Assembly (NCBI RefSeq): GCF_044324785.1
Contig: NZ_CP172127.1
Origin: Escherichia coli
GTDB taxonomy: Bacteria; Pseudomonadota; Gammaproteobacteria; Enterobacterales; Enterobacteriaceae
Direction: 5' to 3' (one strand)
Length of the DNA: 64,000 nucleotides
Both the position numbers and the translations under genes were made by a program. The notes below the pieces were generated by a model that saw only the letters and a program-made list of their open reading frames with translations, searched no databases and was not told the origin of the DNA. Below are positions 22,775 through 23,504 of this stretch, one piece after another. How positions within the stretch are numbered: position 1 is the stretch's first letter; the number at the start of each line of letters is the position of its first letter.

Positions 22775-23504
22775 GAAGAGTTAAGGGTACAAGGGGTACT
22801 CGATGGCGGTCTATATTTCACGACTAACGCCATTTCAAGGAAGAAGTTTGGTGGGTGGTTTCGAATGAGGGCTGGTGTTTTGGTACGTGGCACGCCACTG
22901 CAATGTATTTATCCATCAGTACTCATTCAAAAGTACCTGGAAAAAATGCCCGCTATGCCAAGCGGGCAAATTGCTTACATGTGGAATTAAGTAATTAACG
23001 ATAAAGCCAGAGTATTATCATTTATTATACCCCTTCATTTAATCAGGTTAATTACTCAAATCACTGAACTATTCTCTTTTCGCTCACTTATGCTGAGTGA
23101 GTACCACGACCAATGTATGTAGAACAATGCCGTAGAGTAAGGATGAAATGTCTCTGCCACGCCTAAACATCTACTACTGACTAGAACCGCCGTCGAATGC
23201 AGAAGAGTCTTGTGAGCGTTACAGGAGTCTGGCTTTGCTCATTAATCAACGCTATTTAGATATAAATTTCTAACACTCGAAAAACGATTTTCACTAATAA
23301 ATTATAACGGGTGGTTTTTATCATACAGCGAAATAACCTTTTGTTTATTAAATTTAACATTCCTGTGCGAAATTAATTAAAAGTACCATGTATAGCATAT
23401 GAAGCTGTTAATGCCAGCAATTGTCTCAAATGAGCGATTTTTTATAGTTACAAACAATAATAACATTAAAAATAGCCATGTAGACATTAACTGAGGAATA
23501 GACA

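What the first reader, a model, noticed from the sequence alone, without database searches (positions are those of the whole stretch)
22930..22975. Orphan intrinsic-terminator-like hairpin on the minus strand beside the tRNA, with no upstream CDS: possible small RNA
Read on the minus strand, gcccgcttggcatagcgggc followed by attttttcc forms a typical Rho-independent terminator. Anything terminating there would be transcribed from 23000..23500 toward the tRNA, an interval with no convincing ORF on that strand. Regions beside tRNA genes in horizontally acquired DNA often encode sRNAs.
Basis: inference. Interest (0 to 1): 0.35.

Follow-up and report, generated by a model that had tools for sequence, protein, structure and literature searches.

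The report
Conserved RNA hairpin block beside ileY
The terminator-like hairpin is real, but it is the middle stem of a roughly 165-base, highly conserved folded block just downstream of an E. coli isoleucine tRNA gene, and the natural variation fits folding on the tRNA's strand better than a small RNA gene on the opposite strand.

Summary
The hairpin is there. On the minus strand 22968-22947 forms 8 bp (6 G-C) with a 6-nt loop, followed by U6; chance in this spacer is about 0.0004. No CDS lies upstream on that strand. The window is E. coli and the site lies in the ileY-ypjCB spacer.

The small-RNA reading is weak. Rfam has no match. K-12 has no annotation and no Term-seq 3' end there. The only promoter-like site has a degenerate -10 in about half the lineages sampled. 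56% of carrier genomes, including K-12, have a C.A mismatch in the stem on that strand.

The hairpin sits inside a low-diversity block (22852-23017) that occurs only together with ileY, in about 3,090 of 5,426 E. coli genomes. On the plus (tRNA-sense) strand the block folds into three adjacent helices (z about -4.8, against -2.8 on minus). Eight of nine common substitutions at paired sites keep a plus-strand pair; two of nine do so on minus.

Best reading, confidence about 0.4: a structured element of the ileY read-through transcript. The hairpin could still stop antisense transcription towards the tRNA. Function is unproven; strand-specific RNA mapping is needed.

The parts
22679..22754 (+). 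ileY, tRNA-Ile2 gene (anticodon CAT, read as AUA after lysidine modification)
   Evidence: ARAGORN, Rfam tRNA 73.8 bits, annotated tRNA-Ile/ileY in homologous E. coli records
22755..22851 (+). Variable part of the tRNA trailer. G-rich on plus, C-rich on minus (minus-strand C/G 1.5).
   Evidence: pi 0.059, 19 segregating sites in 118 nt. No significant fold on either strand. Base counts.
22852..22939 (+). HP1: 88-nt imperfect hairpin with 32-33 pairs, seven of them G.U on the plus strand
   Evidence: Plus-strand MFE -36.6 kcal/mol, z -4.4, 0 of 300 shuffles. Minus strand -23.8, z -2.9. Pair census. All 6 variable pairs keep pairing in 13 distinct sequences, except one U.U cell.
22941..22946 (.). 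A6 on plus, which is the U6 tail of the terminator reading on minus. Invariant in all sequences examined.
22947..22968 (.). HP2: the hairpin of the finding (8 bp, 6 G-C, 6-nt loop)
   Evidence: Alleles: the intact 61-mer is exact in 1,020 genomes and the K-12 61-mer (22951 C>T) in 1,732 of about 3,080. 22950 C>T occurs in L014.
22969..22996 (+). HP3: A/U-rich hairpin that forms only on the plus strand
   Evidence: Plus -4.9 kcal/mol (z -2.3), minus -0.1. Invariant in all loci.
23007..23016 (+). Alternative partner of 22932-22940. This closing stem would enclose HP2 and HP3 and competes with the base of HP1.
   Evidence: MFE of 22865-23025 plus strand, -51 kcal/mol, z -4.1. The O157 changes at 22936/22937 give U.G pairs in either pairing, and 23011 A>C falls in the bulge.
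22853..23017 (+). Low-diversity block as a whole
   Evidence: pi 0.003-0.022 against 0.058-0.074 in the flanks. At least 99% identity in 2,646 of 3,092 E. coli genomes, never below 97%. Unchanged between 22858 and 23016 in five further loci, L019-L023. Unchanged over 22930-23017, the part held, in locus L025, which is about 89.5% identical to the window overall.
23024..23051 (-). Promoter-like site TTAACC-16-TATAAT. This is the only basis for a roughly 78-nt minus-strand RNA.
   Evidence: Consensus scan, 10 of 12 matches, with no excess of such sites over shuffles. The -10 is CATGAT in 8 of 15 lineages.
22941..23018 (-). Hypothetical small RNA (about 78 nt) if the promoter-like site fires and HP2 terminates
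   Evidence: Inference. The fold is not unusual apart from the terminator (z -1.4). No experimental support found.
22865..22990 (+). 41-codon ORF (MRAGVLVRGTPLQ...). Its GGUGG Shine-Dalgarno-like motif (22854-22858) and its AUG are both buried in HP1.
   Evidence: Read and the 109-aa ORF frame. No family match. 4 of 7 polymorphisms are synonymous in this frame (hand count). The plus strand has no stop triplet in any frame over 22866-22988, seen in 0.5% of shuffles.
23030..23095 (+). C-rich, G-poor stretch on the plus strand (C/G 3.0). Candidate Rho loading site just after the block.
   Evidence: Base counts. K-12 DirectRNA-seq places a Rho termination region on the tRNA-sense strand at 2,785,734.
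23505..24959 (+). ypjCB (DUF5507/DUF5508), the next gene on the tRNA-sense strand

Best explanation
The hairpin (HP2, 22947-22968) is the middle helix of a conserved structured block of about 165 nt (22852-23017). The block starts about 100 nt downstream of ileY and is inherited only together with ileY. The structure that selection appears to preserve is on the plus strand, the same sense as the tRNA.

The proposed plus-strand fold has four parts:
- HP1, a long hairpin rich in G.U pairs.
- An A6 linker.
- HP2.
- HP3, an A/U-rich hairpin.
An alternative closing stem (22932-22940 with 23007-23016) could enclose HP2 and HP3.

I therefore read the block as a folded part of the ileY read-through transcript. 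It lies between the tRNA and a C-rich stretch where Rho probably loads. My inferred role is that it shapes what happens to RNA polymerase and RNA after the tRNA. It could act as a 3'-exonuclease barrier or processing platform for the tRNA precursor, or as a gate on read-through towards the H-NS-silenced gene ypjCB.

Shown:
- The fold and its strand asymmetry.
- The conservation of the block.
- Its co-occurrence with ileY.
- The published tRNA-sense coverage and Rho effect in K-12.

Inferred:
- That the selected molecule is RNA.
- What the RNA does.

The same hairpin with its U6 would, by standard terminator physics, also stop any minus-strand transcription heading into ileY. That may be a real secondary role. 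I do not think it marks a small RNA gene.
For: 1. Fold. The plus strand 22850-23000 folds at -57.2 kcal/mol (z -4.8, 0 of 300 shuffles). The minus strand gives -40.3 (z -2.8). Consensus structures over 14 loci give -79.2 (plus) against -56.8 kcal/mol (minus).

2. Wobble pairs. HP1 has 7 G.U pairs on plus, which are A.C mismatches on minus, against 1 C.A on plus.

3. Conservation. The block has pi 0.003-0.022 against 0.06-0.07 in both flanks. It is at least 99% identical in 2,646 of 3,092 genomes. It is unchanged in lineages whose surroundings differ by about 10%. Its edges coincide with the ends of the plus-strand helices.

4. Polymorphisms. Using helices predicted from the window sequence alone, 8 of 9 substitutions at paired sites keep a standard pair on plus. 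The null from the flank mutation spectrum is 0.30, giving P = 4e-4. On minus, 2 of 9 keep a pair. On plus 99.9% of cells are paired; on the mirror structure 81.7%. The block has no pure transversion polymorphism; one multi-allelic site, 22857, carries a G>T. In the noncoding flanks 46 of 95 biallelic substitution sites are transversions. All five O157-lineage changes are G.U-type or fall in a bulge.

5. Linkage. Genomes without the block have only a single tRNA-only match, apparently ileX.

6. Transcription. In K-12 DirectRNA-seq, tRNA-sense coverage in the 800 nt beyond ileY is 30 reads against 154 upstream when untreated, and 218 against 308 with bicyclomycin. The Rho score is 3.6. No plus-strand intrinsic terminator lies between ileY and ypjCB.
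Against: - No both-sided compensatory change was seen. All support comes from one-sided transitions within one species.
- Seven of the nine polymorphic sites in the HP1-HP3 core (22853-22996) are C/T on the plus strand. C/T also outnumbers A/G in the flanks, 30 to 19. A deamination bias on the non-template strand could therefore mimic strand-specific pair conservation. The symmetric test (6 of 6 changes at G-C pairs hit the plus-strand C) is then only P of about 0.05.
- One-sided changes just outside the block can be fitted to helices on either strand.
- K-12 Term-seq reports no stable 3' end in the block on either strand.
- The A6/U6 tract directly against a G-C-rich stem is what a minus-strand terminator needs. 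The plus-strand model does not explain it.
- A 41-codon plus-strand ORF spans the same block and could account for part of the conservation.
- No homologue outside E. coli was found.
Confidence: 0.4

Rival explanations
1. Minus-strand intrinsic terminator acting as an insulator. RNA polymerase starting at spurious or divergent promoters in the AT-rich, H-NS-bound ypjCB upstream region runs towards ileY and is released at HP2 plus U6. The C-rich stretch beyond (22852 to 22755 on minus) serves as a Rho back-up. This would protect the tRNA gene from antisense transcription and head-on collisions. No discrete functional RNA is made.
For: - Canonical terminator anatomy, and such sites are about 80-fold enriched over chance in this window.
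- The U6 tract is invariant.
- Several promoter-like sites lie on the minus strand between 23051 and 23484.
- Published genomic SELEX marks H-NS and an RpoD site in the ypjC-ileY spacer.
- The minus-strand C/G ratio is 1.5 between the hairpin and the tRNA.
Against: - 56% of carrier genomes carry a C.A mismatch that weakens the stem from -15.9 to -9.7 kcal/mol on this strand, and a second lineage has another.
- It does not explain the conservation of HP1 and HP3.
- K-12 Term-seq shows no 3' end here, although K-12 has the weak allele.
- Promoter-like sites are no more frequent than in shuffles.
Confidence: 0.2
2. One reading: a stand-alone small RNA gene. The promoter would be at 23051-23024, the transcript about 78 nt (23018 to 22941), with HP2 plus U6 as terminator and possible Hfq-binding module. 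It would act in trans, or as an antisense RNA against the ileY read-through transcript.
For: - A promoter-like site (10 of 12 matches) at a suitable distance.
- A terminator with six U preceded by an A/U-rich stretch.
- The would-be RNA body 22969-23017 is the least variable segment of the spacer: pi 0.003, one segregating site in 49 nt.
Against: - The -10 is CATGAT in 8 of 15 lineages, while the body stays invariant.
- Conservation extends 90 nt beyond the terminator, where the RNA would not reach.
- Stem polymorphisms break the minus-strand pairing.
- No Rfam family and no annotation.
- Nothing in K-12 Term-seq, the RIL-seq-based prediction set, Hfq-CLASH or the stationary-phase sRNA tables.
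Confidence: 0.12
3. The conservation reflects a small protein. A 41-codon plus-strand ORF (22865-22990) would be co-transcribed with ileY. Its ribosome-binding site and start codon are masked by HP1, and HP2 would merely lie inside the coding sequence.
For: - A GGUGG motif sits 6 nt before the ATG.
- The ORF is intact in every common haplotype; the only disruption seen is the singleton 1-nt insertion in L026 listed below.
- 4 of 7 polymorphisms are synonymous in this frame, against 1-2 in the other two frames (hand count).
- There is a 122-nt stretch with no stop triplet in any frame, seen in 0.5% of shuffles.
- NCBI's pipeline calls a longer version of this frame a hypothetical protein in strains where the tRNA is displaced.
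Against: - No family match.
- The three non-synonymous changes are Pro to Ser or Leu.
- The numbers are too small for a dN/dS test.
- An 88-nt near-perfect hairpin covering the start is not explained by coding.
- No small protein is annotated here in K-12.
- One strain has a 1-nt insertion in the frame, which may be a sequencing error.
Confidence: 0.08
4. A relic: the terminator of a gene that once converged on ileY and has since decayed or been replaced, or a leftover inverted repeat of an old mobile element, with no present function.
For: - The locus is accessory, AT-rich and full of pseudogenes in many strains.
- Diversity rises sharply and indels appear from about 23098, which could be an old junction.
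- The stem has been weakened in the commonest lineages.
Against: - No trace of a decayed gene: exhaustive protein searches of the longest minus-strand frame find only the locus itself.
- No similar DNA in phage or plasmid collections, and no second copy in any E. coli genome.
- A neutral relic should not be 3- to 20-fold less diverse than its flanks, nor nearly free of transversions.
Confidence: 0.1

Closest known systems
Rho-independent terminators of enterobacterial Hfq-dependent sRNAs (for example RprA, SgrS)
   Same: G-C-rich 8-bp stem, short loop, six U directly after the stem and an A/U-rich stretch before it. The weak Rfam hits to RprA and other sRNAs come entirely from this module.
   Different: No matching family: the best hit scores 20.8 bits against a gathering score of 70. 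No mapped transcript, no conserved promoter, and natural variants weaken the stem on that strand.
tRNA 3' external transcribed spacer RNAs such as 3'ETS-leuZ of the glyW-cysT-leuZ operon (from my knowledge of Lalaouna et al. 2015)
   Same: Lies directly downstream of, and in the same sense as, a tRNA gene. It is transcribed as part of the tRNA precursor (K-12 read-through coverage). It is structured and conserved.
   Different: 3'ETS-leuZ is short and ends at the operon's intrinsic terminator. Here the plus strand has no U-tract, termination is Rho-dependent, no stable fragment has been reported, and no sponge target is known.
Stem-loops that stop 3'-exonuclease trimming of Rho-terminated transcripts (Dar and Sorek 2018, as cited in PMC7815308)
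   Same: Stable hairpins without a U-tract on the transcribed strand, upstream of a C-rich putative Rho loading and termination zone, in a transcript that is measurably Rho-limited.
   Different: No protected 3' end at the block appears in the K-12 Term-seq table. Three helices over 145 nt is far more structure than such a stopper needs.
Shared or bidirectional terminators of convergent sense-antisense pairs (for example RNA I/RNA II of the par/fst locus, and bidirectional terminators between convergent E. coli genes; from my knowledge)
   Same: One hairpin could serve transcripts from both strands. A minus-strand RNA ending here would be fully complementary to the plus-strand HP2-HP3 region.
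   Different: The U-tract is on one side only, so the plus strand has no intrinsic-terminator signal. No toxin-like hydrophobic peptide is present, and neither transcript has been demonstrated.
Island-encoded sRNAs beside tRNA genes (Salmonella Isr RNAs and similar; from my knowledge)
   Same: Position next to a tRNA gene in horizontally acquired, H-NS-bound DNA.
   Different: Those were defined by detected transcripts. Here there is only sequence anatomy, and the comparative signal points to the other strand.

Membership tests
Intrinsic (Rho-independent) terminator, minus strand | G-C-rich stem of about 5-14 bp with a 3-8 nt loop | tested here: met
   8 bp, 6 G-C, loop 6, -15.9 kcal/mol with short flanks
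Intrinsic (Rho-independent) terminator, minus strand | U-rich tract directly 3' of the stem | tested here: met
   UUUUUU follows the stem immediately and is invariant in all loci
Intrinsic (Rho-independent) terminator, minus strand | Sits at the end of a transcription unit | tested here: not met
   No CDS or annotated RNA upstream on that strand. Only consensus promoter matches at chance frequency.
Intrinsic (Rho-independent) terminator, minus strand | A mapped RNA 3' end at the U-tract | tested here: not met
   The K-12 Term-seq tables (LB OD 0.4 and 2.0, M63) hold no coordinate starting 27854 or 27855. Caveats: K-12 has the weakened allele, and only this one 3'-end dataset was usable.
Intrinsic (Rho-independent) terminator, minus strand | Stem pairing maintained by selection on that strand | tested here: not met
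   Both common stem variants give C.A on minus (-9.7 and -9.0 kcal/mol). The K-12 variant is in 1,732 of about 3,080 genomes.
Hfq-type trans-acting sRNA gene | Own promoter, conserved with the RNA | tested here: not met
   TTAACC-16-TATAAT in the window, but CATGAT in 8 of 15 lineages while the RNA body is invariant
Hfq-type trans-acting sRNA gene | Detected transcript or Hfq association | tested here: not met
   Nothing for ileY or ypjC in the RIL-seq-based prediction, Hfq-CLASH or stationary-phase sRNA supplements. The Cappable-seq tables gave no hit but may not list coordinates in searchable form.
Hfq-type trans-acting sRNA gene | Membership of a described RNA family | tested here: not met
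   cmscan against Rfam 15 on both strands gave only sub-threshold hits driven by the terminator
tRNA 3' trailer (3'ETS-type) structured RNA | Contiguous with and co-oriented to a tRNA gene, and inherited with it | tested here: met
   The block starts 98 nt after ileY. It is present in about 3,090 genomes and absent where ileY is absent.
tRNA 3' trailer (3'ETS-type) structured RNA | Transcribed from the tRNA promoter | tested here: inconclusive
   K-12 DirectRNA-seq shows tRNA-sense reads in the 800 nt downstream (30 untreated, 218 with bicyclomycin), without positional detail. No plus-strand promoter-like site lies between tRNA and block.
tRNA 3' trailer (3'ETS-type) structured RNA | Conserved secondary structure on the tRNA-sense strand | tested here: inconclusive
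   Strong fold (z -4.8), and 8 of 9 paired-site variants keep pairs (P = 4e-4). But there are no both-sided changes, and a C>T mutation bias is a possible confounder.
tRNA 3' trailer (3'ETS-type) structured RNA | Stable released fragment with a function, such as sponging sRNAs | not testable with these tools
   Needs Northern blots, pull-downs or genetics. No Term-seq 3' end is reported in the block.
Type I toxin-antitoxin pair | Small hydrophobic toxin ORF with a masked ribosome-binding site, plus an overlapping antisense RNA | tested here: not met
   The 41-aa ORF has a masked RBS, but the peptide has no hydrophobic helix and no family match. The antisense RNA is undemonstrated.
Bidirectional intrinsic terminator | U-tract after the stem on both strands | tested here: not met
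   On the plus strand the stem is followed by AAAUUGCUU. The scan lists it on the minus strand only.

The most novel reading that the evidence does not exclude
The block is a previously undescribed cis-acting RNA device tied to a rare-codon tRNA gene. The folded plus-strand trailer, with two mutually exclusive closing stems, would decide whether polymerase leaving the AUA-decoding tRNA gene is stopped by Rho or continues into the AUA-rich, H-NS-silenced island gene ypjCB. A short antisense RNA that uses the same hairpin as its terminator could pair with HP2-HP3 to tip that decision. That would be a sense-antisense read-through gate linking supply of a rare tRNA to expression of the foreign genes that need it.
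Probability: 0.12. Interest if true: 0.65.

Novelty: new member of a known kind. Interest (0 to 1): 0.38.

Why it matters
If the plus-strand reading holds, E. coli (K-12 included) carries an unannotated, strongly conserved structured RNA element attached to ileY, one of its two AUA-decoding tRNA genes.

That tRNA sits between two island genes that use AUA at 21-28 per 1,000 codons. By my recollection this is several times the genome average. The element could therefore bear on three questions:
- How tRNA precursors are finished when termination is Rho-dependent.
- How read-through from a strong tRNA promoter into silenced foreign DNA is contained.
- How acquired islands bring and manage their own rare-codon tRNA.

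There is also a methodological point. A textbook terminator shape on one strand can be a by-product of a structure selected on the other strand. Population polymorphism (G.U against C.A) can distinguish the two.

If it turns out to be only an orphan terminator or a relic, the finding is ordinary.

Tried and rejected
Searches that found nothing:
- Rfam scans at gathering-independent thresholds, on 6 kb and then on 325 nt.
- Similar DNA in phages (none) and plasmids. The only three plasmid hits are multi-megabase records, evidently mislabelled chromosomes.
- Paralogues within E. coli genomes: the block is single-copy.
- A 20-mer scan of one genome per bacterial species. It returned only a chance hit in Acinetobacter and an E. 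coli-like contaminant contig in a Planococcaceae MAG, so no cross-species covariation was possible.
- YpjCB homologues as a route to other species: every hit listed (the best 120 of 426) is E. coli or Shigella.

Relic-gene idea, rejected: minus-strand frames are not conserved, and an exhaustive protein search finds only the locus itself.

Small ORFs on both strands: no family.

Literature and supplement searches:
- One usable negative from Term-seq and one positive for tRNA-sense Rho-limited read-through.
- Several papers had no held supplements, or nothing for this locus.
- A low-frequency variant inside the hairpin in a gallium-evolution study (K-12 2,785,563, which is window 22953) was judged probable sequencing noise.

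Other points:
- My first allele-count query used wrong K-12 coordinates. I kept it only as a conservation figure for 22855-22915 and repeated the count correctly.
- Retron, attC, ERIC/REP, IS-end and type I toxin readings were considered from memory. I dropped them for lack of their defining parts: no reverse transcriptase, no R/L boxes, single copy, no hydrophobic peptide.
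Full report
**Where this is.** The window is E. coli chromosome. It carries ssrA with the ANDENYALAA tag (30620-30982, minus) and a tRNA with anticodon CAT at 22679-22754. The stretch 22600-23560 is 99.7% identical to E. coli strain N3 and about 93.5% identical to K-12. The tRNA is ileY. To its left lies a ygaQ-like amylase gene (19867-22119, minus). To its right lies ypjCB (23505-24959, plus). Window position p corresponds to K-12 MG1655 coordinate 2,785,837 - (p - 22679). The whole neighbourhood is AT-rich, 30-43% G+C.

- On the minus strand, 22968 to 22947 reads TGCCCGC-TTGGCATA-GCGGGCA, followed by UUUUUU and then CC.
- With short flanks the hairpin folds at -15.9 kcal/mol.
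- I used a strict definition: a perfect stem of at least 7 bp with at least 5 G-C, a loop of 3-8, and at least 6 T in the next 8 bases. The window has 11 such sites against 0.14 in shuffles. The 750-bp spacer would contain one by chance in 0.04% of shuffles.
- No coding sequence lies upstream on that strand. ORFs there are at most 42 aa.
- The longest open frame is not kept in frame among lineages. It has no family match.
- In 1.84 billion representative proteins it matches only an ORF call from the same locus, plus two repeat artefacts.

**The small-RNA reading finds little support.**
- Rfam has nothing above noise on either strand.
- RefSeq annotates nothing between ypjC and ileY in K-12, or in any of the loci fetched. 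The one exception is a gene-finder ORF on the other strand.
- The K-12 Term-seq tables of Adams et al. 2021 (PMC7815308) hold no 3' end starting 27854 or 27855 in LB at two densities or in minimal medium. The only local entry is the mature ileY 3' end at 2,785,762.
- Supplements of a RIL-seq-based sRNA prediction paper, an Hfq-CLASH paper and a stationary-phase sRNA survey hold nothing for ileY or ypjC.
- One promoter-like site, TTAACC-16-TATAAT at 23051-23024, would give an RNA of about 78 nt. But promoter-like sites are no commoner here than in shuffles: 23 against 22.7.
- The -10 of that site is CATGAT in 8 of 15 lineages, while the supposed RNA body does not vary.
- Published genomic SELEX places H-NS and an RpoD site in this spacer and assigns the site to ypjC.
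- Caveat: K-12 carries a weakened hairpin allele and the region is silenced. Absence from standard-condition data is therefore not decisive.

**Population variation of the hairpin.**
- About 3,080-3,100 of 5,426 complete E. coli genomes carry the region, always as a single chromosomal copy.
- The intact 61-mer around the hairpin is exact in 1,020 genomes.
- The K-12 version (22951 C>T) is exact in 1,732, or 56%.
- Most of the rest are the O157 lineage.
- A second variant, 22950 C>T, occurs in strain GTEN_23.
- On the minus strand both variants make C.A mismatches, giving -9.7 and -9.0 kcal/mol.
- On the plus strand both make G.U pairs, giving -13.2 and -12.4 kcal/mol.

**The hairpin is part of something larger.**
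- In an alignment of 15 loci, diversity falls sharply between about 22873 and 23017. There pi is 0.003-0.022, against 0.058-0.074 on both sides and 0.15 in the first 96 nt of ypjCB.
- Across 3,092 genomes the 165-nt block 22853-23017 is at least 99% identical in 2,646 and never below 97%.
- It is unchanged between 22858 and 23016 in five further loci reached through YpjCB variants.
- It is also unchanged over the part held in L025, a locus only 89.5% identical to the window overall.
- The plus strand of the block folds far better than chance: 22850-23000 gives -57.2 kcal/mol, z -4.8. The minus strand gives -40.3, z -2.8.

**The plus-strand fold.**
- HP1 (22852-22939) has 32-33 pairs, seven of them G.U.
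- A linker of G plus A6 follows.
- HP3 (22969-22996) is A/U-rich and forms on plus only.
- An alternative stem, 22932-22940 with 23007-23016, can replace the base of HP1 and enclose HP2 and HP3. Its outer end coincides with the right edge of the conserved block.

**Which strand is selected?**
- I used helices predicted from the window sequence alone. Of 9 common substitutions at paired positions, 8 leave a standard pair on the plus strand.
- A null built from the mutation spectrum of the flanks expects 30%, giving P = 4e-4. On the minus strand 2 of 9 leave a pair.
- Counted on alignments, 99.9% of cells pair on plus and 81.7% on the mirror structure. On the mirror, every variable pair is broken in some sequence.
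- The minus strand's own consensus fold is 22 kcal/mol weaker, and RNAalifold drops a pair from the terminator stem.
- The block has no pure transversion polymorphism; one multi-allelic site (22857) includes a G>T. In the noncoding flanks 46 of 95 biallelic substitution sites are transversions.
- The O157 lineage has five changes in the block. Four are C>U opposite G and one lies in a bulge.

**Limits of that evidence.**
- There is no both-sided compensatory change.
- All data are from one species, and events are few.
- Seven of the nine variable sites in the HP1-HP3 core (22853-22996) are C/T on plus. C/T is also the commoner class in the flanks, 30 to 19.
- Deamination of the non-template strand of a transcribed region could therefore produce part of the pattern. 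The strictly symmetric test (6 of 6 changes at G-C pairs hit the plus-strand C) is only about P = 0.05 once that bias is allowed for.
- One-sided changes just outside the block can be fitted to helices on either strand.
- Two singleton variants break the model: an extra A in the A-run at 22928-22931, and 22967 C>A. Both come from single assemblies and may be errors.

**Link to ileY and to transcription.**
- Genomes without the block show only a single tRNA-only match at 94-95% identity, apparently ileX. The amylase gene, ileY, the block and ypjCB therefore come and go as a unit.
- In two strains an integrase-bearing element has inserted into ileY. The block stays beside the right-hand tRNA fragment, so it is not part of that element.
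- No plus-strand promoter-like site lies between tRNA and block. No plus-strand intrinsic terminator lies before ypjCB.
- In K-12, DirectRNA-seq coverage on the tRNA-sense strand in the 800 nt after position 2,785,734 is 30 reads against 154 upstream when untreated. It is 218 against 308 after bicyclomycin. The Rho score is 3.6, P = 2e-10.
- So the block is transcribed in the tRNA sense and Rho limits that transcript.
- Directly after the block the plus strand turns C-rich and G-poor (23030-23095, C/G 3.0). That is what a Rho loading site looks like.

**Explanation I commit to (confidence about 0.4).** The hairpin is one helix of a structured element in the ileY read-through transcript. How it works is inference. 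It may protect or organise the tRNA precursor's 3' side after Rho termination. It may also set how much transcription leaks towards ypjCB.

By standard terminator physics the same hairpin with its U6 should also release polymerase coming from the ypjCB side. The plus-strand model does not explain the U6 tract, so a secondary insulator role is quite possible.

| Rival | Confidence |
|---|---|
| Minus-strand insulator terminator | 0.20 |
| Stand-alone sRNA | 0.12 |
| Relic | 0.10 |
| Masked 41-codon plus-strand ORF (22865-22990) causing the conservation | 0.08 |

For the ORF, 4 of 7 variants are synonymous, and the plus strand has no stop triplet in any frame for 122 nt, seen in 0.5% of shuffles.

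**Comparison with known things.**
- The hairpin has the shape of an sRNA terminator. It fails the tests for an sRNA gene that could be run.
- The block resembles a tRNA 3' trailer RNA in position and sense. It lacks the intrinsic terminator and the stable fragment that define 3'ETS-leuZ.
- It resembles the exonuclease-stopping stem-loops of Rho-terminated transcripts, but it is much larger.
- It is not a bidirectional terminator, because only one side has a U-tract.
- I therefore file it as a new, unclassified member of the broad kind 'conserved structured RNA element attached to a tRNA transcript'. It appears specific to E. coli: no copy was found in any other species' reference genome or any other collection searched.

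**Verdict.**

| Item | Result |
|---|---|
| Observation | confirmed |
| Interest | 0.38 |

The orphan terminator alone is ordinary. An unannotated, strongly conserved, strand-asymmetric structure next to a tRNA gene in the best-studied bacterium deserves a strand-specific RNA experiment.

Noticed in passing
window 22705-22722 (inside ileY): The tRNA gene itself is polymorphic among E. coli strains. Anticodon-stem pair 22706/22720 is G-C, G.U, A-U or A.C in different lineages, which includes a both-sided change. Pair 22705/22721 is G.U or G-C. Position 22722 also varies.
   Followed up: partly
window 19867-24959: The two genes flanking the AUA-decoding tRNA are rich in ATA codons. ypjCB has 10 (21 per 1,000; 37% of Ile codons). 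The ygaQ-like amylase has 21 (28 per 1,000; 33%). Amylase gene, tRNA, block and ypjCB are present or absent as one unit in E. coli.
   Followed up: partly
window 22866-22988, plus strand: A 122-nt stretch has no TAA, TAG or TGA in any of the three frames, seen in 0.5% of dinucleotide shuffles. The minus strand of the same stretch has many stop triplets. A 41-codon ORF with a hairpin-masked start lies here.
   Followed up: partly
window 25103-25130, minus strand: A second strong terminator-like hairpin (12 pairs, 6 G-C, then a T-rich tail) lies about 150 nt downstream of ypjCB but on the opposite strand. It gave a weak sub-threshold Rfam hit, BjrC68.
   Followed up: no
window 19867-22119 and 23505-24959: Both the ygaQ-like amylase gene (750 aa) and ypjCB (484 aa) are intact in this strain. 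In K-12 and many other strains they are split, frameshifted or carry internal stops.
   Followed up: no
window 30620-30982: ssrA lies only about 7.6 kb from ileY. The CP4-57 prophage that separates them in K-12 therefore appears to be absent.
   Followed up: no
L003 and L004 (E. coli ETEC1717, RM10740): An element carrying a tyrosine recombinase gene is inserted in ileY. A partial tRNA copy is left next to the conserved block, and NCBI's pipeline then calls a 94-aa 'hypothetical protein' across the tRNA fragment and the block.
   Followed up: partly
L018 (DEQI01000374.1, 'Planococcaceae bacterium UBA3370' MAG): This 2.8-kb contig is about 90-92% identical to the E. coli ileY-ypjCB region. It is almost certainly Escherichia contamination of the MAG.
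   Followed up: yes
window 22953 (K-12 2,785,563): A gallium-resistance evolution study (PMC6928379) lists a low-frequency (0.19) G>A call at this position, which is inside the hairpin. It is probably sequencing noise at a hairpin or a hitch-hiker.
   Followed up: no
window 23098-23120: Diversity jumps to 12 variable columns in 25, and a 1-nt indel appears just right of the conserved block and promoter-like site. This could be an old junction between sequence blocks.
   Followed up: no
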